64,000 nt of DNA. Origin: Candidatus Nomurabacteria bacterium (lineage in GTDB: Bacteria; Patescibacteriota; Patescibacteriia; HK-STAS-PATE-3). This document shows positions 26,330 through 41,225 of this stretch, piece by piece. A program made the translations under genes and the position numbers. The DNA lies in the NCBI GenBank assembly GCA_023898465.1, contig CP060223.1:64001-128000 (forward strand), written 5' to 3'. Within the stretch, counting starts at the first letter, position 1. Every line of letters starts with the position of its first letter. The notes under the pieces were generated by a model. It worked only from the letters and a program-made list of their open reading frames with translations. It had not been told where the DNA came from and ran no database searches.

Positions 26330-26372
26330 ATAAACGAAAACGGACGCATGTAATTGCTTCCGTTTTCGTATC
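26330..26372. terminator. bidirectional intrinsic terminator between permease and convergent small ORF
   Basis: The hairpin gaaaacgga-N14-tccgttttc has T-runs on both sides. Confidence 0.5.
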
Positions 26373-26660: not shown

Positions 26661-27761
26661 CTAAATTACTAGGTTTTTTGGCTTTTGTCGGAGAAAAGAA
26701 AGAATGTTATCTATCGTCGTATCAGCGATGCGCTGAATTGCCTCGGTTGTGTTATATGCATTATGAGGTGTGTAGAGCACATTTGGATGTCGAATCAACT
26801 CAGCATTCATCTGAGCAATTCGTGCTTCTTGTTTATTTGCAGGCTTCCAGGATGGTTTCAACACACTCGCTTCATCTTCTAGTACATCCAATCCTGCTCC
26901 GGCAATACTTCCATTTTTTATACCGCGATACAGTGCTTCAGTTTCGATGAGTTCTCCGCGAGCAGTGTTAATCAGGTACATACCTTTTTTACATTGGCTG
27001 AGATTTTTCTTATTTAAAATGTGATGCGTGCTTGGGAAATATGGCGCATGTACAGTGAGCACGTCAGATTTTTTAACTAAGCTGCTGAGGTTAGCATATT
27101 GAAAGCCTAATTCTTTTGCCAGTTGTGCGTTACGTTTAGGATCATAGGCGAGCACCTTCATACCGAAACCTAAGCCCATGCGAATTGCATGTTGGCCAAT
27201 GCGACCAGCGCCGACAACGCCAAGTGTTTTACCACGCAAGTCTATACCACGTAAATCATCGCGAGAACAATTTCCATCCTGAATGCGGCAATATGTCGGA
27301 TGAATTTTTCTCGTCATGCTTAACAACAAAGCAAAAGCCATCTCCGCCACTGTGTTTTCGCCGTAACTTGGCACGTTGGCTACCTTTACACCCCTCTCTT
27401 TGAGTAACGTGCTTTCACAATGATCATAACCAGTTGATCGAGTGGCAATATATTTAACATTCGGAAATTGCTTAAGCAGCGCTTCATCAATCGGTGTGGT
27501 GATAAAAACAGATAGCACAGTAGTTTTTTCACCGATTGCACGCTGTGACGGAGGCAAAGTTACCTGCTTGAGAAACGAAGCAGGCGTTGCACGGAACTTG
27601 GAACGAAAATAATTTAACTCCCAATCATCACAGCCTAGAAAAGTCGTGTGCTGATTTAAATTCTTTTTACGCGTTGAGATTTTTTTCACAAAATAAGTAT
27701 AGCAACCGAGTTGACATGCGTATACATCTCTTGTGGATAACTTGGTTGTCCACTGACTCAA
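26661..27761 (-). CDS. D-isomer-specific 2-hydroxyacid dehydrogenase family protein (glycerate/phosphoglycerate/lactate DH-like)
   Basis: The NAD-binding motif is GKTLGVVGAGRIGQ, and the core ...NTARGELIE...GAGLDVLEDE is present. The start is TTG with an AGAAGG RBS (an in-frame GTG at 27689 is an alternative). Confidence 0.8.
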   Translation of the reverse strand: MSQWTTKLSTRDVYACQLGCYTYFVKKISTRKKNLNQHTTFLGCDDWELNYFRSKFRATPASFLKQVTLPPSQRAIGEKTTVLSVFITTPIDEALLKQFPNVKYIATRSTGYDHCESTLLKERGVKVANVPSYGENTVAEMAFALLLSMTRKIHPTYCRIQDGNCSRDDLRGIDLRGKTLGVVGAGRIGQHAIRMGLGFGMKVLAYDPKRNAQLAKELGFQYANLSSLVKKSDVLTVHAPYFPSTHHILNKKNLSQCKKGMYLINTARGELIETEALYRGIKNGSIAGAGLDVLEDEASVLKPSWKPANKQEARIAQMNAELIRHPNVLYTPHNAYNTTEAIQRIADTTIDNILSFLRQKPKNLVI

Positions 27762-27856
27762 TACCTTCTAGGATGGAGACATGCAACGCACGGGGGGACT
27801 GTGCGTGTTTGGAACGTTGACATGCTATAAGGATGTTGATCCGGGAGTGAAGAGTC

Positions 27857-28957
27857 ATGGGAAACGTACTCGTGGTTGGGACGGGAACGATCGGCAAGCC
27901 GCTCATCGGTTTGCTCACCAAGAGAATGGAAGGTCTTGGTATCAGTCAGGTTGCTTTTCACAAGCGGACTCCGCAAGCCGATACCACGCCTTCGATTCGT
28001 CGACTAGTTGATCGTGGTGCGCTCTTGGTCTGTGATGAAGAGGCGAGGGATGATTTCCATCGCTATGGCCTGGAGCCGCAGATGACGCGCGATGAGGCGT
28101 TAGCCTGGGCTGACGTGGTGATAGACTGCACGCCAGCCGGCAACGCACACAAGACTGGTCGAGCGGTGAACAAGAAGGGTGTGGTGGTTGAGTGCCCACC
28201 CTGGTATCCAGCCCACGAAGACAGTACCCTCGGCTTCATCGCCCAGGGTTCAGAAGAGGGCTTTGGCCAGCCTTTTGCGTTGGACATCAACAACGAACAG
28301 GTTGATCCGAACGCACACAAGTACGTCCAGGTTGTGTCGTGTAACACGCATAACCTCCTCGTGCTACTTGATCTCTTCGGGAAGCTCGGAGTGGGCAGGA
28401 TCAAGGGTCGTTTCGTGATGATTCGCCGCGCGACGGACATCAGTCAACCGGACAATGTTTCTGCTCCCAAGGTCGATAAGCACAAGGAGCTTCGGGGCGA
28501 TCGACACTTCGGTACACACCACGCCTACGATGCTTGGCGGGTTCTTCAGACCATGGGCGTTGATTACGACCTGTTTTCTTCAGCACTGCAGACACCGACC
28601 CAGTACATGCATGTCTTGCATTTCTTCCTCGAGGTTGAGCGTCCACCGAGTCATGAAGAAATCATCGCAGCAATTCGCGAGCGTCCTCTCGTGGCAACTA
28701 CTGAGTACTGCAACACGGGACAGGCCTTCTCGGAAGCGCGCGACGACGGGTTCTACGGTCGAGTACTCGACCAGACGGTCATTCCAGTGAAGACCTTGGT
28801 AGTGAACGGGAATGAGATCACTGGTTTCGCGTTCACTCCGCAGGACGGCAACAGTCTGCTCTCAACCGCAGCGGCGGCTGCACGCTTCCTCGATCCAGTT
28901 GGTTGGAGAGATCGGATCACTAACTGTTTCGGGAAGTACATGTTCGACGAGGTCTGA
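27857..28957 (+). CDS. gap: glyceraldehyde-3-phosphate dehydrogenase, archaeal-type (class II)
   Basis: The N-terminal motif is VVGTGTIGK, followed by DVVIDCTPAG. The active-site region VQVVSCNTHNL and the motif VMIRRATD are hallmarks of class II GAPDH. The gene is visibly GC-richer than its neighbours. Confidence 0.7.
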   Translation: MGNVLVVGTGTIGKPLIGLLTKRMEGLGISQVAFHKRTPQADTTPSIRRLVDRGALLVCDEEARDDFHRYGLEPQMTRDEALAWADVVIDCTPAGNAHKTGRAVNKKGVVVECPPWYPAHEDSTLGFIAQGSEEGFGQPFALDINNEQVDPNAHKYVQVVSCNTHNLLVLLDLFGKLGVGRIKGRFVMIRRATDISQPDNVSAPKVDKHKELRGDRHFGTHHAYDAWRVLQTMGVDYDLFSSALQTPTQYMHVLHFFLEVERPPSHEEIIAAIRERPLVATTEYCNTGQAFSEARDDGFYGRVLDQTVIPVKTLVVNGNEITGFAFTPQDGNSLLSTAAAAARFLDPVGWRDRITNCFGKYMFDEV

Positions 28958-29002
28958 TCAAGCACACTGTTCATTCACGTCCCGCCTCAAGTGAGGATCA
29001 CT

Positions 29003-29536
29003 ATGATCCAAAATCAAGAGGCGGGACTTTTTCTTTTCTTCAAGATTGGGGAGTGCTATGATATAGCTACCATGCATATTAGTTTAAACTTGCCACAATT
29101 CCGTCGTCAGCGCGCACTATTTATCGTGACCGATAAGGAACACGCGAAGTTTTTTGAAGTTTCCAATGGTGAGATTAACGAGCTGGAAGAGATGGCAATT
29201 CATCCTGACCCGAGTGAAGGTAGATTAGCCAGCGGCGGTCGTCGTAAAAAAATTCCCCGCAAAGGTAGGCTTGTTAAGTCACCACTCGGCCAAGAGGGGC
29301 TTTATTATCAGTTTGCCAAAAAAGTAAGTCAGGGCGGTTTAGCTTTGGAAAAAAAGCGGCCCTATAAAGCGATTTATCTTTTTGCGCCACATCACTACCG
29401 ACATGAATTACTTGATCGCCTGCATGCCTATGTGACCAAAAAAATCGCCCACGTGATTGATGGCGACTATATTCATGAACATCCAGTGGAATTACTGCAT
29501 CGTGTTCGTTCAATTGCAAAACTGGATGGAGTATAA
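29003..29536 (+). CDS. Hap (host-attachment protein)/baeRF-like family protein
   Basis: The segments LFIVTDKEHAKFFEV ... IHPDP..GR ... YKAIYLFAPHHYRHELLDRLHAYV...HVIDGDY follow the Host_attach family layout. A GAGGA RBS lies 7 nt before the ATG at 29003. Confidence 0.45.
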   Translation: MIQNQEAGLFLFFKIGECYDIATMHISLNLPQFRRQRALFIVTDKEHAKFFEVSNGEINELEEMAIHPDPSEGRLASGGRRKKIPRKGRLVKSPLGQEGLYYQFAKKVSQGGLALEKKRPYKAIYLFAPHHYRHELLDRLHAYVTKKIAHVIDGDYIHEHPVELLHRVRSIAKLDGV

Positions 29537-32728: not shown

Positions 32729-32861
32729 CACGTCGTGCATTCTCAAGGGATGGAAGAGCTTCCATCCCGGAATGAGTGCGAGACCCGTACTCTGAACGTT
32801 GACAATTGAACGTATCAGGACTGGTTCCTGCATACGACGAGATAAACTTGGAGGTTTCCGT

Positions 32862-34085
32862 ATGCGCTGTTTGACCATGGCGTTGTGCCTTTGGCTCATC
32901 TTCGTGGCCAATGCGGCGCATGCAGGTGAGTATCAGAATCTCCGACCCGGTCCGCCGGTGTTGGAGCTGGGTGCGTTTTTCGCATCAACCTTTCCCGAAG
33001 CTCTACCACAGCTGCCAGCTGGCACGGTGGTAGCACACTTCCCGTGTCCGGTGCCGGCGACATTCGTGTTTGCCGATCGGAGTCTCCGCACCTACTCACT
33101 TCCGAGTGAGGCAAAGGTGGTGGCGACGGAGCTGCGTCGGGACGATGGTGGAGCGTACTACCAGTTGCTCTATCTCCTCTCGAATAAGCAGGCGAGCTAC
33201 GCGGAGCGATTCGCGTATCCGATCTGGCTGAATAGCGATCCGGTCTACGTCCCCAACAACACCAAACTCTTGGTATTGGAACGTGGTCCCGAGCAAGCGA
33301 CGGTTGTCACTTCTGCTCCTGTGACTGCGACACCGCAGCAGCAGGGTGAAGCGATCAAGACGACGCCGGTGGTGAGAAACACGCCCGTGTCCTCTGCGCC
33401 ATCGACTGGACGGGTTGAGGGTGAGCACATCATCCATCACCCCTTCATTCGCGGGCAGCTTGATTTGAGGACGGAGTTCCTCGGTGTGAAACCCGAGAAC
33501 ATCTTCACTCATCAAGTGATTCCATCGCTTTGGCTGAACCAACACCTTGGTTTGACCGGACGTTGGGAGCGGCACGAAGCGAAGGATCTCGATCCATCGC
33601 AGGGCTGGGGAGTCGGGCTCTGTTACCGGACAGCTCCTATACATCGATTGTCGGTCGAGTACGCTCGATTGACATTTGGTGAGATGAGTTCGTCCGGGCA
33701 AAGCATTCAGCTCGTGCATTTCGAATCCAGGCTACAAACCTGGTTCCTGCATCACGAGTTGGAAGCAGAGCAGCGGGATAACGACGCGAAGGAAGTTTGG
33801 ACTCGACTACGGTCGGGGCTTGCTTTCCAAGTCGGCTATCGTAGCCGGCTGCAGATGGGCGGAGAGTTAGCTAACCTGAACTACGAACTCGTAGCACAGG
33901 ACGGCTACTACTACGTGTCTGCACTTGGGACGCGCTTCAATCGATCTCACTACGGAGCATTTGCCAGCTTGGATACCCATCTGGGTGATCACTTCCCACT
34001 ACGACTTCTGGTCGGCGGCGGGAAGGGCAGTGTTCCAGAATGGAACTACATCAATGCCGAGCTGAGACTCGGAGTTGATTTCTGA
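32862..34085 (+). CDS. secreted OMP-like protein: signal peptide, N-domain, S/T/P linker, C-terminal beta-barrel-like domain ending in Phe
   Basis: The signal peptide is MRCLTMALCLWLIFVANAAHA, and a GGAGG RBS precedes the start. The C-terminal 230 aa show an alternating hydrophobic pattern and end in ...AELRLGVDF*. The GC content is high. Confidence 0.6.
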   Translation: MRCLTMALCLWLIFVANAAHAGEYQNLRPGPPVLELGAFFASTFPEALPQLPAGTVVAHFPCPVPATFVFADRSLRTYSLPSEAKVVATELRRDDGGAYYQLLYLLSNKQASYAERFAYPIWLNSDPVYVPNNTKLLVLERGPEQATVVTSAPVTATPQQQGEAIKTTPVVRNTPVSSAPSTGRVEGEHIIHHPFIRGQLDLRTEFLGVKPENIFTHQVIPSLWLNQHLGLTGRWERHEAKDLDPSQGWGVGLCYRTAPIHRLSVEYARLTFGEMSSSGQSIQLVHFESRLQTWFLHHELEAEQRDNDAKEVWTRLRSGLAFQVGYRSRLQMGGELANLNYELVAQDGYYYVSALGTRFNRSHYGAFASLDTHLGDHFPLRLLVGGGKGSVPEWNYINAELRLGVDF

Positions 34086-34335
34086 TGTACGAATCCTGGC
34101 CACTTGGTCAGTACTCATAACTCGTCGGGTGGTCAGGAGATCCGTAAGGATTTCTACAAAAGGACCTAAGGGTCCGCGACCTGTGCCGAACGCACACGGA
34201 GGACAACATGCGAAAGCGTGCTCCGCCGACTATCTGATGAGCTTGTGTAACTGACCATGCCCCAATCAACTTGTTTGGGGCTAGGGATTAACCTGCCCCG
34301 ACAACAAAAAATTGGGGCAAGCCAAGGAGGAAGCC

Positions 34336-35625
34336 TTGTTCAAGCTTCGCATCAGCGCGATCTTCGCGCTTCTCATCCTTCTGGGTGCCGGTCTCTATGG
34401 CTGCGCTCAGGAGCCCATCGTGTTCCAGCCCGATCAGGATGTGCCGACCGATCAGCTGCCGGGCGATGGCACAGCCACGCTCAGTCTGCAGATCGGCGGC
34501 GTACCGGCCCAGCACAATGGAGGCGCTTCGAGTGCTTTCATGGTGACCAATACGGTGCAGGTGATCGGCAACATCTTCCTCACCGGTGACCGACTGGACA
34601 CCGAGTGGAAGATGCAGAACTGGAGCAGCGGCGATGTCCAAATCCAGACCATGAACGGTCGTTGGTATTCGGTCGCTCCTTCGGTCGACGGCAACGTCCA
34701 GATCACCAACTTCCTCATCAACGACATCCAGCCGCAGCATTTCGTGCAGCTGGATGAGATGAAGGGGATCTTCGCCCAGGTCAAGCTGTTGCCGGATTCG
34801 TCTGGCTTCCAGTTGTATCAGCTCGAAGACAACCGGGATCAGCTGATGACGGTGCACTACCGAGTCTACGATCCTGCCCCGGCTGACTTCCAGGGACTCC
34901 AGATCGTGGGAACTTCCACGAACTGGAATCAGATGTATCCGGAGGCGATCTACAGCTCCGACTACGGTATCTGGGAGTGGTGGGGTCCGGCGTTGAAGGC
35001 GAGCGGCAACAAGGTCGCTTTCCGGATTCGCGGAAGTGGGGCTCTGCCGACCTCGTATTTGATCACTGCCCAAGGCGAAGTGAACGGTACGCCGGTTGGT
35101 GAAGAGGTCCAGCTCGACTGTACGGAGTTGGTGGAGAACGTGAATACGTACTTCGCCAGCACGACCTGGTTCACCGACCGCGGTTGGTTGGCTGGGAAGC
35201 GAGTCTACCGACTCATCATCCACGAAGATGGTGGTATCGAACAGGGATGCGGAGGCATCCCGATTCAGACGACCATCTCGATCACGAACAACCGCATTCC
35301 GCAGGATCACCACCTGATGTGTGTCTACGACGGCTACAACGACAATCAGCCGTTCGAGATTCCTCGGGTGAGCGGCAAGTGGGAAACCACGCAGATCACG
35401 CTCCATTCTGGTCCGGCGGCTCTGTCGGTCTGGGATACGAGTGACGGAGACAAGCCGATCATCACCACGGTGAAGATCGGCAGCCAGGAAGTGAAGCACC
35501 TCGAAGTGTTTCAGGATCCTGGTTCGGAGCCGACGGTTCACTTCACCTTCGTCCTTGGCGAGGGTCCGACCCTGCAACAGGGGACGGACAATCGCACTGG
35601 TACGATCGGAGGAGAGAACTACTAA
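34336..35625 (+). CDS. lipoprotein, unknown function
   Basis: The RBS aaggagg lies 5 nt before the TTG at 34336 (the ORF track uses TTG 34312). The lipobox is LLGAGLYGC. The antisense 456-aa ORF is Arg-rich and spurious. Confidence 0.6.
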   Translation: MFKLRISAIFALLILLGAGLYGCAQEPIVFQPDQDVPTDQLPGDGTATLSLQIGGVPAQHNGGASSAFMVTNTVQVIGNIFLTGDRLDTEWKMQNWSSGDVQIQTMNGRWYSVAPSVDGNVQITNFLINDIQPQHFVQLDEMKGIFAQVKLLPDSSGFQLYQLEDNRDQLMTVHYRVYDPAPADFQGLQIVGTSTNWNQMYPEAIYSSDYGIWEWWGPALKASGNKVAFRIRGSGALPTSYLITAQGEVNGTPVGEEVQLDCTELVENVNTYFASTTWFTDRGWLAGKRVYRLIIHEDGGIEQGCGGIPIQTTISITNNRIPQDHHLMCVYDGYNDNQPFEIPRVSGKWETTQITLHSGPAALSVWDTSDGDKPIITTVKIGSQEVKHLEVFQDPGSEPTVHFTFVLGEGPTLQQGTDNRTGTIGGENY

Positions 35626-35667
35626 TCGCCAGCCCTGGGAACGCTGACGATTGCACATTCTTGCCCC

Positions 35668-35712
35668 GCCCGCTACAACACTTTGTGTTGAAGCGCGGCG
35701 GGGCTTTCTTTT
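35668..35712 (+). terminator. intrinsic terminator (GC hairpin + ctttctttt)
   Basis: The sequence is gccccgcccgct...agcgcggcggggc followed by a T-run. A TTGACA promoter lies 70 nt downstream (35782). Confidence 0.5.
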
Positions 35713-36010
35713 ACCTTGGCAGGATGGAAATGTAACTAGTCTTCAAGTTCTGATGTTTGTTGAAGCAATGTTTCGTAGGGCTTGACAAAATAGCACTTTT
35801 CCTGCTAAAGTTCGCCGTTAACCAATGCGTAAAACCATCTAAAAAACGAACATTTTTACCACAACGACCTTAGTCGTTTGTGCTACTTATGGACATGAAT
35901 GGCTTGAGAAATGCCTAGCATTCCTCAACCGATTCTGGACCGGAAGTACTGCAGTAATTGTCATTCTTTGACAATTGAATTCAGAAGTCATTCTCACAGA
36001 GGAGGGTCTC

Positions 36011-37207
36011 ATGCGGACCTGGTATGTGGTTCTTGCGCTACTGGCGCTCGTCTCCTTTGGGTCCGCTCGGGCCCAGGTCATCGAAATCCCGATCGACTAC
36101 GTCGCGACGGATTCGGTGATTGCGAACTGGCCGCATCTCAACATCGGGGGCAACCCGGTGTACAAGAGCGGCTACCCGGCTGATTCCTTGGCAGTACATG
36201 CTGCTCGGGACGGCTGGTTCAAGACGACCTTCAACTTTCCCGTCGGGATCTACTGTCTCGATAAGGATGGGAAGATCATCAAGGGACGTGTCGAACCCGG
36301 ACAAACCATGAAGAATGGTGCCCGGGCCGATACGCTGATCGTGTCTATTCTAGCTGAGACGCCGGAGCAGACGCTGTATCAGATCCACGTTATTCAGGCG
36401 TGCGGTAACCCCGTGCTCTGGTCAGGCGTCGGTGTGTTGAAAGCACCGAAGCCGACTGGCCCACTGCCGCCGCCAACCCTGACTGTTCCGAAGCCCCCAG
36501 CACCACCTCCCATTGCGGAGACGGAGCCGCCGATCGTAGTAGAGCCTGAAAAACACTTCAGGCTACCGATCGATGGTTGGGCTGGAGTGGCAGGAAGTAA
36601 GTCACTCGAGTCCAAGGCTTGGTCGCTCTTCGAGGGCGTCTACATCGACTTTCCGTTGATCGTGGACAAGCTCACGTTCAAGTTTGGGGCGGCAACGTCT
36701 CAGGCAAACTACGAGAAGCTCCGTGGTCGGACGAGTTACCGAGGTGTTGGCGGCGATATGAGTCGCTGGCAAGTCGGCCTCTTCTACCGGCCTTGGGACA
36801 ACATCCAGGTTACCGGCCTGATTGGTCAGCAGTATGACCATAAGGCTGGCGACTGGCAGGATGGCGTCCAGCTGGAAGGAGTGCTGGGTTTCCCCATCGG
36901 TCGCTGGTGGAACGATGAGGATGTCAGCTACGGCACTACGACCAAAGCACTTTGGTTCCGCACTCGACATGCCTACAAGCTGTCGGGTGAAGGAATGCAT
37001 TGGTGGTCGATCGGCGGCGAGTTTGTCTATGACTCGTTCATGGACAACGATGGTCGATTCTACACTTCGCGCGTTCACGTATTTGGGAAGCGAGAGTTTC
37101 CCGGATTCTGGAATCGCGAGGCTGTCTTCATCTTCGGTGGCGGAAGAGGGAGTAAAGACGAGGCTTGGGGCCTCATAGCAGAACTAGGGCAGCGGCTCTG
37201 GTTCTAG
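36011..37207 (+). CDS. secreted OMP-like protein: signal peptide, N-domain, Pro-rich linker, C-terminal beta-barrel-like domain ending in Phe
   Basis: The signal peptide is MRTWYVVLALLALVSFGSARA, with a GGAGGG RBS. The linker is PKPTGPLPPPTLTVPKPPAPPPIAETEPP. It ends in ...GQRLWF*. The architecture matches the gene at 32862. Confidence 0.6.
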   Translation: MRTWYVVLALLALVSFGSARAQVIEIPIDYVATDSVIANWPHLNIGGNPVYKSGYPADSLAVHAARDGWFKTTFNFPVGIYCLDKDGKIIKGRVEPGQTMKNGARADTLIVSILAETPEQTLYQIHVIQACGNPVLWSGVGVLKAPKPTGPLPPPTLTVPKPPAPPPIAETEPPIVVEPEKHFRLPIDGWAGVAGSKSLESKAWSLFEGVYIDFPLIVDKLTFKFGAATSQANYEKLRGRTSYRGVGGDMSRWQVGLFYRPWDNIQVTGLIGQQYDHKAGDWQDGVQLEGVLGFPIGRWWNDEDVSYGTTTKALWFRTRHAYKLSGEGMHWWSIGGEFVYDSFMDNDGRFYTSRVHVFGKREFPGFWNREAVFIFGGGRGSKDEAWGLIAELGQRLWF

Positions 37208-37221
37208 AAGGGAGATTCCTG

Positions 37222-38385
37222 ATGCGTTTTCTCCGTTTCATGGCCGCTGCGCTGTTGCTGCTCGGTGCCTTCGGGTGCCAGAAGCTCCCCAGCGAGCCGA
37301 TCGACACCGGTGGCAGTCAGCCGCCGCAGGAGTACAACGGACCTGAGTCTGGTCTCGCGCTCAACTTCGAGCGTGGCGCCGGACAATACGAATTCGTTTC
37401 CGACATGTTCATCCATCAGGGTGGCGTGACGGATTGGGCGACTGTAACAGTCAACCCGGATAACTTCTTCCTCACCACCTACGCTGGACACTGGTATAGC
37501 GACATGCTGACCAGGGACGGTGTGCCGGTGCTGGGAGACTACACTCTGGCCGGTTCGACTCCGTCCAACTACTGGATGGATGAGAACCGCGGTGTTTTCG
37601 CGAGCCACATGGTTCTCGTCAGCGACGCTGACAGTGCCTGGGTCTGGCAGTGGCCCTCCAATGCCAGCCAGTTGGTCGACCTCGACATCGAGGTGCTCAA
37701 CTGGTCATCGGCAACGGATCTTGGCGTGGTCGGTACGCCGACGTGTTACGTCGTGCACCCGGCCATGTTGAACCACTTGCATGACAACGTCTACGGACGC
37801 TCGCTACGCCTCCTGCCCGGTGATGCCAAAATCGCTGTGATGGATATGTACGAGCGAGTTGGTCTGGGTGATGCAGTCACGGTCCGTATCAACGGCACCG
37901 AGCTGGTCGCCTACGTCGATGACTTCACGCATGACAACCAGCCGACGGTACATCGTTACTTCCGCTTTCACGTGAACGCGGATGGGACGGTGAGCTCGAT
38001 CGGTACTGAGAACCGATTCTCGTATGGGAACACGGTCTCGGTCAGCAATTCCAATATCGATCCCAGCGCTACGGTGTATCTCAACGGCACAGGCCTCACC
38101 AACGGTGAGATGATGCCGATGACCTATGTCGGCAGCTGGACCTGGCAGCTCACCGGTCTCACGACCTGGGTGGGCGAGCAGGATTTGAGGGTGAGTATGG
38201 AAGACGGGACTGGTGTGTTTCGTACCGTTCGCTTGAACGGAACGGAGTTGCACCACCTGGCTGCCGTGCCGCTCGACCCGGATCCTCCGATCCAGGTCTT
38301 CCGATGCACGCCCATGCATGACCACACGGTGATGCAGGGCGAGGACAACCGGGCCGCTGACATCGGCATGGAGACCGGCGGATGA
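37222..38385 (+). CDS. lipoprotein, unknown function
   Basis: The lipobox is LLLLGAFGCQK. An RBS gaagggag is present. Confidence 0.6.
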   Translation: MRFLRFMAAALLLLGAFGCQKLPSEPIDTGGSQPPQEYNGPESGLALNFERGAGQYEFVSDMFIHQGGVTDWATVTVNPDNFFLTTYAGHWYSDMLTRDGVPVLGDYTLAGSTPSNYWMDENRGVFASHMVLVSDADSAWVWQWPSNASQLVDLDIEVLNWSSATDLGVVGTPTCYVVHPAMLNHLHDNVYGRSLRLLPGDAKIAVMDMYERVGLGDAVTVRINGTELVAYVDDFTHDNQPTVHRYFRFHVNADGTVSSIGTENRFSYGNTVSVSNSNIDPSATVYLNGTGLTNGEMMPMTYVGSWTWQLTGLTTWVGEQDLRVSMEDGTGVFRTVRLNGTELHHLAAVPLDPDPPIQVFRCTPMHDHTVMQGEDNRAADIGMETGG

Positions 38386-39869
38386 GCGAAGAAGGTGATG
38401 CGACAAGTCGTGAGGTGCCTCCCCAAGTAAGAGAGGTACTTCGCCAAATGCAACGAGTCGCGAAGAGAGATCGCAAAAAGAAGGCGAAGCATCGAGCCCG
38501 CAGAGAGGAACGGAAAAAACAGGCAAAGGCAAGAGTGAAAGCTCGAACGGGTGAGCAGTCAACAGGTTCTCCAAGGAAAGGAGATGAACCTCGTCGTCCT
38601 GTTCCGCCGCCTCAGCCTGCACCAAGTGCTTCGCCGTCCTACGCATCTCTACTGGGAGATAAGCTTGGGGGAATTCCTCAAGTAAGACGAAATCCGAAGA
38701 GAGCAGAAACAAACCTGGGAGGCTCGCCGAGCTTCCCCCAAGATGAGGAGGGTCATGTAATGCCCGAGGTGTCCATGCGCGAAGAAGGAGGATCGAGGAA
38801 GCTTTTGATTGCCACTGTGGCGATCTTGTGCGTCCTCTTGGTCGGGGTGCTGATCTACACGCATCCCTGGAGTCCTCAGCAAGGTCTGACGGAGACCGAG
38901 GTGTCGGATATGATCAGGGAGTTCGCTGATCAGATGCCGGCTCCGGTCGCTGAAATCCCCGATGACGTGGTACGCAAGGGTGACCTTGCTTCGATGCAGC
39001 CGGCGGCGATCACTCTCAGCGCTTTCGACGAGACCTATCTCGATACGCTGTGGGCGACGGTCAAGGATCCGGTGACCGGGAAGATCGACTCGACGATGGT
39101 CGTGAAGACCCGGACGAGGAATCCCATCACTGATTTGCAGAAGGACGTGAAGAGTACCAATGCCGAGGCTCGTGCAGCCAAGGTTGCGGCACGGAATGCG
39201 GAGAAGCGTCTCAAGGAGACGCCGACCCAATTCGCCGTGACCGTGCCTTCGACTTCCACATCGACTTCGCTTCACCAGCCTGGTGGAGTGCAGTTGGGTG
39301 GTACCACGACCACGACGGCGCCTGTGCAGATGACGACTCGAACGAGTACGCAAGCCGGGCTGGTGGCTGGTACGATCGGAGGTGGTTCGCCGCCCCCGCC
39401 GCCGGCTAGCAACGTCGCTGTGTCCATGACTACCACGATGGTTCCGGCCGGTGAACAGGTGATGGGTGGGGACGGCTTGATGAAGCAGGGTCCGGCCGTT
39501 GCCTTTGTCTACAACGGTCAGACCTACGTTCGTCGGGATCTGGTGCAGCGCAACAAGTACGGCGACCCGATCAACCCCAGTCGAGCTGACCAGAACTTCT
39601 ACGTGATGGCCGGCGAGCAGGGGATGAACTGGAAGCTCGTCAATCCGGCCAAGCAGAAGATGACGGTCCAGGGCGACTATTTGGTCTGGCCTGGCGTGAT
39701 CAAAGGTCCTTTCCAGGTCGGCTGGGTGGATCCGAACGACCCGGCCTACATGCCTGAAAGTGGCGTAGTCTGGGCTCCGATCGCTGAGTTCTACTCCGGC
39801 TACGACGGGACCTTCTGTCGTGACCCCGACTATCAGTTGAGGGCTGTGGCGATCCAGCAGATGCCGTAG
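38382..39869 (+). CDS. membrane-anchored protein: K/R-rich cytoplasmic N-tail, one TM, T/S/P-rich region, C-terminal ~130-aa domain shared with the gene at 40047
   Basis: An ATGA overlap joins it to the upstream gene. The TM is LLIATVAILCVLLVGVLIY. The C-terminal segment GPAVAFVYNGQTYVRRDLVQRNKYGDPINP...GDYLVWPGVIKGPFQVGWVDPNDP...VWAPIAEFYSG aligns with residues ~265-375 of the next gene. Confidence 0.6.
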   Translation: MSEEGDATSREVPPQVREVLRQMQRVAKRDRKKKAKHRARREERKKQAKARVKARTGEQSTGSPRKGDEPRRPVPPPQPAPSASPSYASLLGDKLGGIPQVRRNPKRAETNLGGSPSFPQDEEGHVMPEVSMREEGGSRKLLIATVAILCVLLVGVLIYTHPWSPQQGLTETEVSDMIREFADQMPAPVAEIPDDVVRKGDLASMQPAAITLSAFDETYLDTLWATVKDPVTGKIDSTMVVKTRTRNPITDLQKDVKSTNAEARAAKVAARNAEKRLKETPTQFAVTVPSTSTSTSLHQPGGVQLGGTTTTTAPVQMTTRTSTQAGLVAGTIGGGSPPPPPASNVAVSMTTTMVPAGEQVMGGDGLMKQGPAVAFVYNGQTYVRRDLVQRNKYGDPINPSRADQNFYVMAGEQGMNWKLVNPAKQKMTVQGDYLVWPGVIKGPFQVGWVDPNDPAYMPESGVVWAPIAEFYSGYDGTFCRDPDYQLRAVAIQQMP

Positions 39870-39897
39870 TCCGCGACTGCAACGTTCTTTACTTCAA

Positions 39898-39936
39898 CCC
39901 CCGCTATATCTACGGATGTAGCGGGGCTTTCTTTTT
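39898..39936 (+). terminator. intrinsic terminator (cccccgcta-N12-tagcgggg + T-run)
   Basis: A perfect 8-bp stem is followed by ctttcttttt. Confidence 0.7.
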
Positions 39937-39943
39937 ACTATGC

Positions 39944-39972
39944 TTGACAAAATGCCAAAAATAGCATACTAT
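39944..39972 (+). promoter_or_regulatory. sigma70 consensus-like promoter (TTGACA-N17-TACTAT)
   Basis: The sequence is cttgacaaaatgccaaaaatagcaTACTAT, 75 nt upstream of the 40047 start. Confidence 0.6.
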
Positions 39973-40046
39973 AGCCGGTTCTTTTTGCACCTCACAATCT
40001 AGTTACACAAGCGAGAGACACTACACATCCCAACCGGGAGGACTAC

Positions 40047-41225
40047 ATGCTCCAACGTTTCTTTGCGTGGTCTTTGCTGGCGCTCTTCGCCTTCGGCTGT
40101 GCCGGAGGTAGTGCCACGCTGAAGCAGCATCAGCAGCCCGTCGGGCAGGTCTACGTGGGCGACTGCGTGCCGTCGGATGGCATTCATCCGACTGGCTACC
40201 TTCGCCTGACCAAGCCGCCGGAGGACTTCAACTCGATGCTGTCGATGTGGCACGCTGTTCAGGCCGAGGGTTCATCCGAGCCCTCGAAGATCGAGGTCGA
40301 CTACATCCGGGTCTACGCCCACGTAGCCGGCCGCGATTCACTGCTCGACAGCGACGAGTACAACGACATGATCGGGGACGGAGGTCTCTATCTTCGTCAT
40401 CCCTCGTGGTTCTACAACGATGACCATACGAGTCTGCCCTGCGAGTTCGACATGGTCAACGGTTACTTGGTCTTGCGACCGAGCGACTACCCGGATCGAG
40501 TCTTTCACTGGTGGAATTCCTACCATCCAGCGGAGGATGTCTGGCGTGTCACTATTCCGGCCGGTGCTACCAACTGCTGGGCAGAGACTCGGATTCGGAT
40601 TACGGGTCCAGCCTATGTCCAGGGCGGCATTGACTACTGGCGTTCACTCACTGCTCCGTACGGCGGCGTCGAAGTGAACAACCGGGAAGCCTGCATGTCC
40701 AACTGGACTTGCTCGGCTGATCCGGGTTGGCAGACCATCGTGGTTGGTAAGGACAAGCCGCAGGGCGACAGCGCTGTGGTCGATGCCGATGAGAACGGGA
40801 AACCGAAAGTCGTCCAGGCTCCGGTCTACGATCCTTTCGAGAGCAAGGCCGACGGTCTCCTCAAGAAAGGCGCTGCTGTCTGTTTTGTACAAGACGGACG
40901 CACCTACTTCCCGAAGGAGATCGTGGCGACGAACAAGTACAGCGATCCGGCTCGCCCCAAGAATGGCAAGTACTACTTGCTGGGCGGGGTGAAGCCATGG
41001 GCTATCGCCGGCGACGATCAAGAGCTCCGGGAAAACGGGGATTACCTCTACTATCCCGGCGTGGTCGACAAGGTGTGTCAGGTGGGCTGGGAGGATCCGG
41101 CCGACGCTTCGGCCGATCCGTCCGGAACCGTATGGAGCGCTTCAGCGGAACTTTTCTCGGGTCGCCCGGGATCAGTTTCGAAGAACGGTCAGTACGGCTA
41201 CCTGCCAGTCAATCTCTCCAACTAG
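40047..41225 (+). CDS. lipoprotein with C-terminal domain paralogous to the gene at 38382
   Basis: The lipobox is LLALFAFGCAGGS, with a GGGAGG RBS. The C-terminal segment AVCFVQDGRTYFPKEIVATNKYSDPARP...GDYLYYPGVVDKVCQVGWEDPAD...VWSASAELFSG aligns with the upstream gene. Confidence 0.6.
   Translation: MLQRFFAWSLLALFAFGCAGGSATLKQHQQPVGQVYVGDCVPSDGIHPTGYLRLTKPPEDFNSMLSMWHAVQAEGSSEPSKIEVDYIRVYAHVAGRDSLLDSDEYNDMIGDGGLYLRHPSWFYNDDHTSLPCEFDMVNGYLVLRPSDYPDRVFHWWNSYHPAEDVWRVTIPAGATNCWAETRIRITGPAYVQGGIDYWRSLTAPYGGVEVNNREACMSNWTCSADPGWQTIVVGKDKPQGDSAVVDADENGKPKVVQAPVYDPFESKADGLLKKGAAVCFVQDGRTYFPKEIVATNKYSDPARPKNGKYYLLGGVKPWAIAGDDQELRENGDYLYYPGVVDKVCQVGWEDPADASADPSGTVWSASAELFSGRPGSVSKNGQYGYLPVNLSN

What the first reader, a model, noticed from the sequence alone, without database searches (positions are those of the whole stretch)
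27857..28957. Archaeal-type (class II) GAPDH with anomalous GC in a bacterial context
The VVSCNT active-site motif, MIRRATD and the N-terminal GTGTIGK fit class II (archaeal) GAPDH, not bacterial GapA. The gene is clearly GC-richer than the divergently transcribed 2-hydroxyacid dehydrogenase next to it and the genes downstream. This suggests horizontal acquisition. No bacterial-type gap gene is visible in the window.
Basis: partly seen in the sequence, partly recalled or inferred. Interest (0 to 1): 0.5.

Follow-up and report, generated by a model that had tools for sequence, protein, structure and literature searches.

The report
Bacterial class II-like GAPDH in a CPR genome
The gene is a real, intact, GC-rich relative of the archaeal-type sugar-metabolism enzyme GAPDH, but it belongs to a large, mostly bacterial and uncharacterised sister family that has sat in this tiny-genome bacterial lineage for a long time, so it is not a recent gift from archaea.

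Summary
The protein has the class II GAPDH fold. Every class II catalytic, phosphate-site and NADP-specifying residue is present. It is not a canonical archaeal enzyme: it scores 82.7 bits against a curated cutoff of 185. With 91-100% bootstrap support it falls in a separate sister family. That family occurs in at least 590 species genomes, nearly all bacterial, and NCBI mostly names its members 'hypothetical protein'.

The host is a Candidatus Nomurabacteria (Patescibacteria/CPR) genome. The GC excess is real: gene GC 0.559 and GC3 0.63, against GC3 0.36-0.40 in the neighbours (z about 3). The same excess appears in 4 of 5 related Patescibacteria genomes carrying orthologues 54-82% identical. 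The closest relative has the gene at the same chromosomal position. Independent assemblies reproduce the junctions.

Best reading: a functional, probably NADP(H)-linked phosphorylating GAPDH, acquired long ago by a narrow CPR lineage from GC-richer bacteria.

Supporting context: in two Thermoplasmatota MAGs the family gene lies directly downstream of pgk.

Not settled: whether this is the genome's only GAPDH.

The parts
27857..28957 (+). CDS, 366 aa: class II-like (bacterial sister family) phosphorylating GAPDH homologue
   Evidence: ORF. NCBIfam type II GAPDH 82.7 bits, below the 185 cutoff. AlphaFold pLDDT 95.5. Foldseek top hits are archaeal GAPDH 2czc/1cf2/2yyy/1b7g. Residue mapping.
27962..27964 (+). 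Codon for Lys36, equivalent to M. fervidus Lys33, the residue that specifies NADP in class II GAPDH (class I has Asn here)
   Evidence: Alignment mapping. Role taken from review PMC12041015 section 38. K in 9/9 archaeal references, 11/11 Patescibacteria clade members and 36/39 other family members.
28337..28348 (+). Codons for Ser161-Cys162-Asn163-Thr164: catalytic nucleophile motif SCNT (M. fervidus S139-C140-N141-T142)
   Evidence: Cys is present in 103/108 family sequences.
28424..28429 (+). Codons for Arg190-Arg191 (M. fervidus R167/R168): substrate-phosphate and inorganic-phosphate sites
   Evidence: Invariant in alignments A1 and A2. Mapping. Role.
28517..28522 (+). Codons for His221-His222 (M. 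fervidus H193/H194): inorganic-phosphate site
   Evidence: H222 is Gln in about a quarter of family members (27/108) but His in the window protein.
28610..28612 (+). Codon for His252 (M. fervidus H219): the class II-specific catalytic base
   Evidence: Present in 105/108 family sequences.
27843..27847 (+). Shine-Dalgarno-like GGGAG, 9 nt upstream of the ATG
   Evidence: Read directly from the sequence.
28979..29042 (+). Terminator-like element: hairpin 28979-29027 whose outer stem is a 10-bp GC-rich helix (GUCCCGCCUC/GAGGCGGGAC), followed by a U-rich tract 29028-29042
   Evidence: RNA fold -29.5 kcal/mol, z = -3.77, 0 of 200 shuffles fold as well. Sequence. The simple terminator scan missed it because its loop limit is 3-8 nt.

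Best explanation
The gene encodes a functional phosphorylating glyceraldehyde-3-phosphate dehydrogenase of a class II-like sister family. It interconverts glyceraldehyde-3-phosphate and 1,3-bisphosphoglycerate. The family is mostly bacterial.

Mechanism, inferred from conserved residues. Cys162 forms the thiohemiacetal and then the thioester. His252 acts as the base. Arg190 and Arg191 hold the substrate phosphate. Ser161, Asn163, Arg190, His221 and His222 hold inorganic phosphate. Lys36 favours NADP(H), as in the anabolic archaeal enzymes.

Setting. The host is a Candidatus Nomurabacteria (Patescibacteria/CPR) genome. The gene looks like a self-contained unit with its own Shine-Dalgarno sequence and terminator hairpin.

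Origin. It was probably acquired by an ancestor of a narrow Patescibacteria clade from a GC-richer bacterium, or from a GC-richer Patescibacterium. It was not acquired from archaea. It has since been inherited or exchanged within that clade and keeps a G+C-rich third-position signature.

Shown: fold, residue conservation, phylogenetic position, GC pattern, synteny. Inferred: enzymatic activity, cofactor preference, direction of transfer.
For: Fold and family. The AlphaFold model has pLDDT 95.5 and pTM 0.92. Foldseek top hits are the four archaeal class II GAPDHs. The family profile hits only those four in the PDB.

Active site. All class II residues listed in PMC12041015 are present in the window protein and in 11/11 clade members.

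Context. In both Thermoplasmatota loci that carry the family gene, pgk lies 33-34 nt upstream on the same strand.

Phylogeny. Archaeal references are monophyletic in 100/100 bootstraps, the family in 91/100, and the Patescibacteria clade, nested inside the family, in 76/100.

Distribution. At least 590 GTDB species genomes across many bacterial phyla carry the family, but only 2 species belong to the close clade. Only about 10 clusters exceed 50% identity to the window protein.

Host. The window GroEL is 100% identical to a Candidatus Nomurabacteria MAG protein, and all close GroEL relatives are Patescibacteria.

Composition. The gene has the highest GC3 among local ORFs in the window (outside the 32.8-41.2 kb block) and in 4 of 5 relatives (z 2.4-3.1), but equals the background in the GC-richer relative L096. 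Third positions are enriched in both G and C, like the GC-rich block and unlike GroEL. In GC-rich hosts the gene has GC 0.63-0.64.

Integrity. Independent assemblies reproduce the locus.
Against: No biochemical data exist for any member of this family, as far as the literature searches showed.

The protein fails the curated type II GAPDH thresholds and the Pfam Gp_dh_C gathering score (24.1 vs 24.4 bits).

No bacterial locus shows linkage to pgk, tpi or fba.

Orthologues within the Patescibacteria clade are as divergent as 54% identity. Synonymous sites should therefore have equilibrated long ago. A persisting GC3 excess is hard to explain as simple residual donor composition. It may instead need repeated exchange within the clade or gene-specific selection.

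The trees are neighbour-joining only, and no donor lineage is resolved. All non-Patescibacteria members are about equally distant, at 43-49% identity.
Confidence: 0.62

Rival explanations
1. One reading: a canonical archaeal class II GAPDH recently transferred from an archaeon into a bacterium, with the GC excess being the donor's composition.
For: Class II fold and motifs. The gene is GC-richer than its neighbours.
Against: It fails the archaeal equivalog models (82.7 vs 185 bits; 58.4 vs 232.9). It is 23-27% identical to archaeal enzymes. It lies outside the archaeal clade with 91-100% bootstrap support. Its nearest non-CPR relatives, at 43-49% identity, are bacterial. The closest relative has the gene at the same locus. 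The GC excess is shared by orthologues down to 54% identity. No insertion scars are present.
Confidence: 0.03
2. The gene is vertically inherited in this lineage. Its GC excess reflects gene-specific selection, for example on codon usage, mRNA structure or amino-acid composition, and not foreign origin.
For: The excess is present across a clade spanning 54-89% identity, longer than mutational amelioration should take. Gene GC stays within 0.56-0.64 while host GC ranges from 0.43 to 0.72, which suggests constraint. GC1 is also somewhat high, at 0.627.
Against: The third-position profile is G- and C-enriched like the GC-rich block. It is unlike the highly expressed GroEL of the same genome, which is C/T-rich and G-poor at fourfold sites. 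The clade is very rare among Patescibacteria: 2 GTDB species and about 10 protein clusters. It is nested within a family from other phyla. The gene occupies two different neighbourhoods whose distribution does not follow the gene tree.
Confidence: 0.2
3. The protein is a class II GAPDH-fold paralogue acting on a different substrate, such as another phosphorylated aldehyde or acyl-phosphate, possibly linked to nucleotide or pentose salvage. On this view it is not the glycolytic or gluconeogenic GAPDH.
For: It fails the curated GAPDH thresholds. It carries family-specific invariant motifs that archaeal enzymes lack, AQGSExGFG and FTPQDGNSLLS. Many host phyla usually carry a class I gapA as well (background knowledge, not tested here). 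Krumholzibacteria-type loci have adenosine deaminase and 5'-nucleotidase genes upstream.
Against: Both phosphate sites, the nucleophile, the base and the NADP lysine are all conserved. pgk is directly adjacent in two of two Thermoplasmatota loci. No alternative family scores in NCBIfam or the PDB.
Confidence: 0.13
4. An assembly or binning artefact: a GC-rich fragment from another organism was joined into a CPR contig.
For: The GC steps at both gene boundaries are sharp (100-bp profile).
Against: The identical protein with the same FtsX - 2-Hacid_dh - gene - baeRF arrangement occurs in independent assemblies of two other runs. The arrangement is syntenic in L001 and L096.
Confidence: 0.01

Closest known systems
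Archaeal class II (type II) phosphorylating GAPDH, NAD(P)-dependent (EC 1.2.1.59). Examples: Methanothermus fervidus 1CF2, Saccharolobus solfataricus 1B7G, Pyrococcus horikoshii 2CZC, Methanocaldococcus jannaschii 2YYY. Models: NCBIfam NF003251, TIGR01546, CDD cd18127.
   Same: Same fold (TM 0.77-0.87, rmsd 2.7-3.8 A). Same catalytic set S-C-N-T, R-R, H-H and H, plus the NADP lysine. Similar length.
   Different: Only 21-27% identity. Scores less than half the curated equivalog cutoffs. Forms a separate monophyletic sister family. Carries family-specific invariant motifs, AQGSExGFG and FTPQDGNSLLS, plus a clade-specific insertion at about residues 100-118. Hosts are overwhelmingly bacterial. 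No member has been characterised biochemically.
Class I GAPDH (bacterial/eukaryotic GapA, EC 1.2.1.12; Pfam Gp_dh_N and Gp_dh_C)
   Same: Same superfamily and chemistry. Shares the Ser-Cys nucleophile motif and the Rossmann GxGxxG.
   Different: 20% identity to E. coli GapA. No Gp_dh_N hit, and Gp_dh_C is below the gathering score. The class I base, His176, is replaced: the aligned column is Arg190. Class I Asn32 is replaced by Lys36. Lower structural similarity, TM about 0.6-0.7.
Archaeal-type enzymes already reported in CPR bacteria (form II/III and III-like RuBisCO of the nucleoside salvage pathway)
   Same: Another central-carbon enzyme of 'archaeal type' found patchily in CPR genomes and attributed to lateral transfer (PMC5113843 and PMC6389311, listed).
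   Different: Here the immediate relatives are bacterial, not archaeal. No RuBisCO or AMP-phosphorylase linkage is seen in the window or in related loci.

Membership tests
Class II (archaeal-type) GAPDH | Class II GAPDH three-dimensional architecture | tested here: met
   AlphaFold pLDDT 95.5. The six best Foldseek PDB hits are all archaeal GAPDH chains, E 9e-23 to 5e-21, TM 0.77-0.87.
Class II (archaeal-type) GAPDH | Nucleophile motif Ser139-Cys140-Asn141-Thr142 (M. fervidus numbering) | tested here: met
   S161-C162-N163-T164.
Class II (archaeal-type) GAPDH | Class II-specific catalytic base His219 | tested here: met
   H252, in 11/11 clade members and 38/39 other family members. Role.
Class II (archaeal-type) GAPDH | Phosphate sites Arg167, Arg168, His193, His194 | tested here: met
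   R190, R191, H221, H222. R190 and R191 are invariant in A1 and A2.
Class II (archaeal-type) GAPDH | Lys in the dinucleotide-binding domain that specifies NADP (class I has Asn32) | tested here: met
   K36 aligns with M. fervidus K33; E. coli GapA has N in that column. Actual cofactor preference was not measured.
Class II (archaeal-type) GAPDH | Score at or above the curated equivalog cutoffs (NF003251 at least 185 bits; TIGR01546 at least 232.9 bits) | tested here: not met
   82.7 and 58.4 bits. Ten other family representatives also fail: eight score 27-91 bits and two have no hit.
Class II (archaeal-type) GAPDH | Phylogenetic placement within the clade of characterised archaeal enzymes | tested here: not met
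   Archaeal references (Sulfolobus, Pyrococcus, Methanocaldococcus, Methanobacteriales) are monophyletic in 100/100 bootstraps. The window's family is monophyletic and separate in 91/100 (NJ).
Class II (archaeal-type) GAPDH | GAP + Pi + NAD(P)+ <-> 1,3-BPG + NAD(P)H activity | not testable with these tools
   Requires an enzyme assay. The indirect support is pgk adjacency in 2 of 2 Thermoplasmatota loci.
Class I GAPDH (GapA) | Pfam Gp_dh_N plus Gp_dh_C above gathering scores, with catalytic His176 | tested here: not met
   No Gp_dh_N hit. Gp_dh_C scores 24.1 bits, below the 24.4 cutoff. The His176 column is Arg.
Recently horizontally acquired gene (genomic island) | Compositional deviation from the host genome | tested here: met
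   GC3 0.632 against 0.444 +/- 0.062 (z = 3.0). G- and C-enriched third positions.
Recently horizontally acquired gene (genomic island) | Absent from the syntenic position in close relatives, or flanked by mobile-element or insertion signatures | tested here: not met
   Present at the same position in L001 (82% identity) and L096 (57% identity). No bracketing repeats. No integrase or transposase adjacent.
Recently horizontally acquired gene (genomic island) | Gene phylogeny incongruent with organismal phylogeny, or patchy distribution | tested here: inconclusive
   The Patescibacteria clade is nested among sequences from other phyla (76/100) and is very rare among Patescibacteria. However, no donor is resolved and no species tree was built.

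The most novel reading that the evidence does not exclude
The family could be a third, essentially bacterial lineage of phosphorylating GAPDH: class II fold, NADP-type, a sister group to the archaeal enzymes. On this reading it is the only GAPDH in this Nomurabacteria lineage. It is invisible to Pfam and to NCBI's annotation pipeline. Central-carbon reconstructions for hundreds of uncultivated species (CPR, Krumholzibacteriota, Marinimicrobia, Acidobacteriota, Myxococcota, marine Thermoplasmatota) would then either miss the step or misjudge its cofactor and direction.
Probability: 0.3. Interest if true: 0.5.

Novelty: new member of a known kind. Interest (0 to 1): 0.3.

Why it matters
This is mainly an annotation and evolution point. 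A widespread family holds at least 590 species genomes and 79 clusters (50% identity) at E <= 1e-30. It has a complete class II GAPDH active site, yet it falls below Pfam and NCBIfam thresholds, and NCBI names its members 'hypothetical protein'. Pipelines that rely on those models can wrongly report GAPDH as missing. Pipelines that transfer the 'archaeal type II' label can imply an archaeal origin that the phylogeny does not support.

For CPR biology, GAPDH, TIM and PGK are reported as a near-universal core (PMC7304191). It therefore matters whether some lineages use this NADP-type enzyme in place of GapA, because that bears on cofactor use and on the direction of flux. The persistent GC excess across a deep clade is a small but clear caution against reading local GC anomalies as recent transfer.

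Tried and rejected
1. Conserved-neighbour analysis. I clustered flanking ORFs from the 55 of 80 genome loci that my motif filter picked up. No neighbour was shared across phyla. The largest clusters (12 loci) are lineage-specific synteny.

2. tblastn with E. coli GapA, Pgk, FbaA and TpiA against the window and 91 loci (1.48 Mb). The only hits were pgk in the two Thermoplasmatota loci.

3. Literature searches for a characterised bacterial class II GAPDH, or for a CPR-specific report. None was found. Jaffe et al. 2020 treat GAPDH as one trait.

4. The first genome scan with the 43-sequence alignment failed because the alignment was too diverse. It was repeated with 19 sequences.

6. Model coordinates are not exposed, so active-site distances could not be measured. 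I used alignment mapping instead.

7. The exact GroEL look-up to name the source assembly returned nothing.

8. The sigma-70 consensus scan found no promoter upstream of the gene, and the terminator scan missed the long-loop hairpin.

9. Translational selection as the cause of high GC3 was rejected, because GroEL has a different third-position profile.

10. Assembly chimera was rejected.

11. Functional coupling to the adjacent 2-hydroxyacid dehydrogenase was rejected, because that gene is absent from the syntenic relatives L001 and L096.
Full report
OBSERVATION. The window contains an ATG-initiated ORF at 27857..28957 on the + strand, 366 aa. A GGGAG Shine-Dalgarno-like sequence lies 9 nt before the ATG. 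The N-terminus aligns with the N-termini of 18 homologues. Directly after the stop codon the RNA folds into a strong hairpin spanning 28979-29027, with a 10-bp GC-rich outer stem (-29.5 kcal/mol, z = -3.8, 0 of 200 shuffles as good). A U-rich tract follows it. The gene therefore looks like a self-contained unit.

The divergently oriented neighbour is a D-2-hydroxyacid dehydrogenase (2-Hacid_dh_C, E = 6.5e-54). The downstream genes encode a baeRF/Host_attach protein and a HAMP-domain protein.

The gene has GC 0.559 and GC3 0.632. Its neighbours have GC 0.396-0.438 and GC3 0.325-0.401. Relative to the 36 window ORFs outside the 32.8-41.2 kb block (GC3 0.444 +/- 0.062, maximum 0.574), it lies at z = 3.0. 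The window also holds a larger GC-rich block at 32799-41225. No class I gapA is in the window. The identical protein with the same flanking genes occurs in independent assemblies from two other sequencing runs, so the composition steps are not a chimera.

WHAT THE PROTEIN IS. Pfam gives only a sub-threshold Gp_dh_C match (24.1 bits against a gathering score of 24.4) and no Gp_dh_N match. NCBIfam finds the two type II GAPDH equivalog models, but far below their cutoffs: NF003251 at 82.7 against 185 bits, and TIGR01546 at 58.4 against 232.9 bits. In the PDB, only the four archaeal class II GAPDHs are hit. The single sequence gives E = 1e-13 to 6e-7. A family profile gives E = 1e-28 to 1e-34, with no class I chain at E <= 1e-5.

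An AlphaFold model built on a 43-sequence alignment is very confident, with pLDDT 95.5 and pTM 0.92. Foldseek ranks the archaeal enzymes 2CZC, 1CF2, 2YYY and 1B7G first (TM 0.77-0.87, 21-22% identity). Class I GAPDH and E4PDH follow at TM about 0.6-0.7.

The review PMC12041015, citing Charron et al. 2000, lists the class II active site in M. fervidus numbering. The nucleophile motif is Ser139, Cys140, Asn141 and Thr142. His219 is the base. Arg167 and Arg168 bind the substrate phosphate. Ser139, Asn141, Arg167, His193 and His194 bind inorganic phosphate. A Lys replaces class I Asn32 and specifies NADP. In the multiple alignment these map to S161, C162, N163, T164, H252, R190, R191, H221, H222 and K36 of the window protein. 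All are present in 11 of 11 members of the window's clade and in nearly all other family members. So the protein works like a class II phosphorylating, probably NADP(H)-linked, GAPDH. This is an inference from conserved residues, not a measurement.

FAMILY AND PHYLOGENY. The word-indexed search found 5,870 proteins at E <= 1e-3 among the 8,000 candidates it scored. The exhaustive search of 50%-identity representatives found 546 clusters at E <= 1e-3 and 79 at E <= 1e-30. None of ten diverse representatives reaches the type II equivalog cutoff: eight score 27-91 bits and two have no hit. NCBI names the members it holds 'hypothetical protein'. JGI calls many of them 'GAPDH type II / NAD(P)'.

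I obtained true archaeal references by searching with the M. fervidus sequence and from the PDB alignments. A bootstrapped neighbour-joining tree used 60 sequences, 347 columns and 100 replicates, rooted on E. coli GapA. The results were:
- Archaeal references (Sulfolobus, Pyrococcus, Methanocaldococcus, Methanobacteriales, Methanomicrobiales): monophyletic in 100/100.
- The class II-like family: monophyletic and separate in 91/100.
- WINDOW + P0001-P0010: a clade in 76/100, nested within the family.
- WINDOW + P0001 + P0002: 100/100.

The window protein is 23-27% identical to the archaeal enzymes, 20% to GapA, 43-49% to family members from other phyla, and 54-89% within its own clade. It is therefore a member of a sister family and not of the characterised archaeal clade.

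DISTRIBUTION AND HOST. Labelled hosts include Krumholzibacteriota, Myxococcota, Neomarinimicrobiota, Acidobacteriota, Fibrobacterota, Gemmatimonadota, Acidimicrobiia, Lentisphaeria, Desulfomonilales, Entotheonella, Eisenbacteria and Fidelibacterota. Two Thermoplasmatota archaeal MAGs also carry it. Their copies never group with the archaeal references (0/100).

Only two species genomes carry close relatives, at 82% and 68% identity. Only about ten 90%-identity clusters exceed 50% identity.

The window's GroEL is 100% identical to a protein of a 'Candidatus Nomurabacteria bacterium' MAG on a 1,082,586-bp contig, and every close GroEL relative is Patescibacteria or Parcubacteria. The 'bacterial context' is therefore a CPR genome. 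The titles 'uncultured Gammaproteobacteria' on the two closest MAGs are almost certainly mislabels, because one of them is the contig that is syntenic with the window.

GENOMIC CONTEXT. L001 (82% identity) and L096 (57% identity) share the window's arrangement: GAPDH-like, baeRF, HAMP, TSP3, Wzz-like. L001 also shares the upstream part, giant surface proteins followed by ABC and FtsX genes. Both lack the 2-hydroxyacid dehydrogenase, so that neighbour is not a functional partner.

L003 (68%), L095 (62%) and L009 (54%) share a different neighbourhood: VanW and HSP20 genes upstream, then the GAPDH-like gene, an optional BcrAD/DUF2229 gene, a 528-aa ORF and an HD_4 gene. The two neighbourhoods are distributed across both gene-tree subclades. 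That implies relocation or exchange within the clade.

Across phyla there is no conserved neighbour. tblastn with E. coli GapA, Pgk, FbaA and TpiA against the window and 91 loci (1.48 Mb) found only pgk. It lies in both Thermoplasmatota loci, 33-34 nt upstream of the family gene on the same strand. That operon-like pairing with the enzyme that consumes or produces 1,3-bisphosphoglycerate is independent support for a GAPDH function of the family.

THE GC ANOMALY. The values across the six Patescibacteria loci are given below.

| Locus | Gene GC3 | Other local ORFs, mean GC3 | z |
|---|---|---|---|
| window | 0.632 | 0.444 (block excluded) | 3.0 |
| L001 | 0.763 | 0.547 | 2.6 |
| L003 | 0.829 | 0.590 | 2.35 |
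| L095 | 0.709 | 0.437 | 2.85 |
| L009 | 0.717 | 0.520 | 3.1 |
| L096 | 0.693 | 0.687 | 0.09 |

In the window (outside the block) and in L001, L003, L095 and L009, the gene has the highest GC3 of any local ORF. L096 is the GC-richest host (locus GC 0.574), and there the gene matches its surroundings. In GC-rich hosts of other phyla (0.67-0.72) the gene has GC 0.63-0.64 and GC3 0.91-0.95.

In the window gene, G at fourfold sites is 0.29, against 0.12-0.25 in the other host genes examined. G among NNR codons is 0.78 against 0.33-0.62. C among NNY codons is 0.62 against 0.25-0.58. This is the same profile as the GC-rich block. It is unlike GroEL, which has fourfold G of 0.14. So the excess is a general G+C signature and not translational selection.

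No repeats bracket the gene. No mobility genes are adjacent. The anomaly is therefore old and shared across the clade.

The most economical account has three elements. A narrow Patescibacteria lineage acquired the gene laterally from a GC-richer bacterium. The gene was possibly exchanged later among Patescibacteria with different GC contents. Amelioration has been incomplete. A weakness is that 46% protein divergence within the clade should have erased donor GC3. Gene-specific constraint remains a live rival, at about 0.2.

VERDICT. The label 'archaeal' and the implied recent acquisition are not supported.

The gene is a new member of a known kind: an uncharacterised, mainly bacterial sister family of class II GAPDH. 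Its main significance is for annotation and for CPR central metabolism. Whether it is the genome's only GAPDH could not be tested, because only 64 kb of the genome is available here.

Interest is modest, at 0.3. The most novel surviving reading is a distinct bacterial GAPDH lineage that replaces GapA in some CPR bacteria. It has perhaps a 0.3 probability and would merit about 0.5.

Noticed in passing
window 32799-41225: A block of six ORFs (392-495 aa, five on the + strand and one on the - strand) with GC 0.56-0.595 and GC3 up to 0.74, against a window mean GC of 0.487. Several have lipoprotein- or signal-like N-termini. None has a Pfam hit at E <= 1e-3. The third-position profile matches that of the GAPDH-like gene. 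A run of similar-sized ORFs lies at the equivalent position in L096 (6506-12268), where GC3 is 0.72-0.79, so the block is also conserved and not recent.
   Followed up: partly
window 42-24318: An array of giant ORFs (about 1,060-1,710 aa) on the + strand with a GC periodicity of about 5 kb (peaks near 6-7, 11-12, 16-17 and 22-23 kb). The homologous region in relatives carries Kelch, FN3, DUF2341, Laminin_G_3 and Pur_ac_phosph_N matches, which suggests paralogous surface proteins.
   Followed up: no
window 26661-27689 (-): The D-2-hydroxyacid dehydrogenase (VanH/PGDH/glyoxylate-reductase-like; called as 342 aa in independent assemblies) is present here. It is absent from the syntenic position in L001, the relative whose GAPDH-like protein is 82% identical. 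There, only a 51-aa ORF separates the FtsX and GAPDH-like genes. It is a recent indel with host-like GC (0.423).
   Followed up: partly
L058 2652-4823; L070 8875-11053: In two Thermoplasmat(ot)a archaeon MAGs, a pgk gene (31-32% identical to E. coli Pgk) lies 33-34 nt upstream of the class II-like GAPDH gene on the same strand. Their GAPDH copies group with the bacterial family and not with archaeal class II enzymes.
   Followed up: partly
L013 (= L001 contig CAZWTD010000007.1), L014: The record titles call these MAGs 'uncultured Gammaproteobacteria bacterium'. However, L013 is syntenic with the window, and the window's GroEL is 100% identical to a Candidatus Nomurabacteria protein. The titles look like taxonomic mislabels.
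   Followed up: partly
L001, L096 vs L003, L095, L009: Within the Patescibacteria clade the gene sits in two unrelated neighbourhoods: FtsX ... gene - baeRF - HAMP, and HSP20 ... gene - (BcrAD/DUF2229) - 528-aa ORF - HD_4. Their distribution does not follow the gene tree, which hints at relocation or exchange within the clade.
   Followed up: partly
window 28154-28210 (about residues 100-118 of the protein): A clade-specific insertion (HKTGRAVNKKGVVVECPPWYP and longer variants) is found in most of the Patescibacteria sequences aligned (shorter in P0005 and P0006) and in none of the other family members aligned. It is modelled with pLDDT above 90. About a quarter of family members elsewhere have Gln in place of the second phosphate-site His (H222).
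   Followed up: no
window 28991-29536 (+): The baeRF/Host_attach-family ORF downstream is conserved next to the GAPDH-like gene in L001 and L096. Its listed GTG start overlaps the terminator-like hairpin. Independent assemblies call it as 177 aa, starting near 29003, and homologues are 147-174 aa. The real start is therefore downstream of 28991.
   Followed up: no
window 26334-26369: A 15-nt inverted repeat (93% complementary, 6-nt loop) lies 20 nt after the FtsX stop codon. It is probably the terminator of the ABC/FtsX operon.
   Followed up: no
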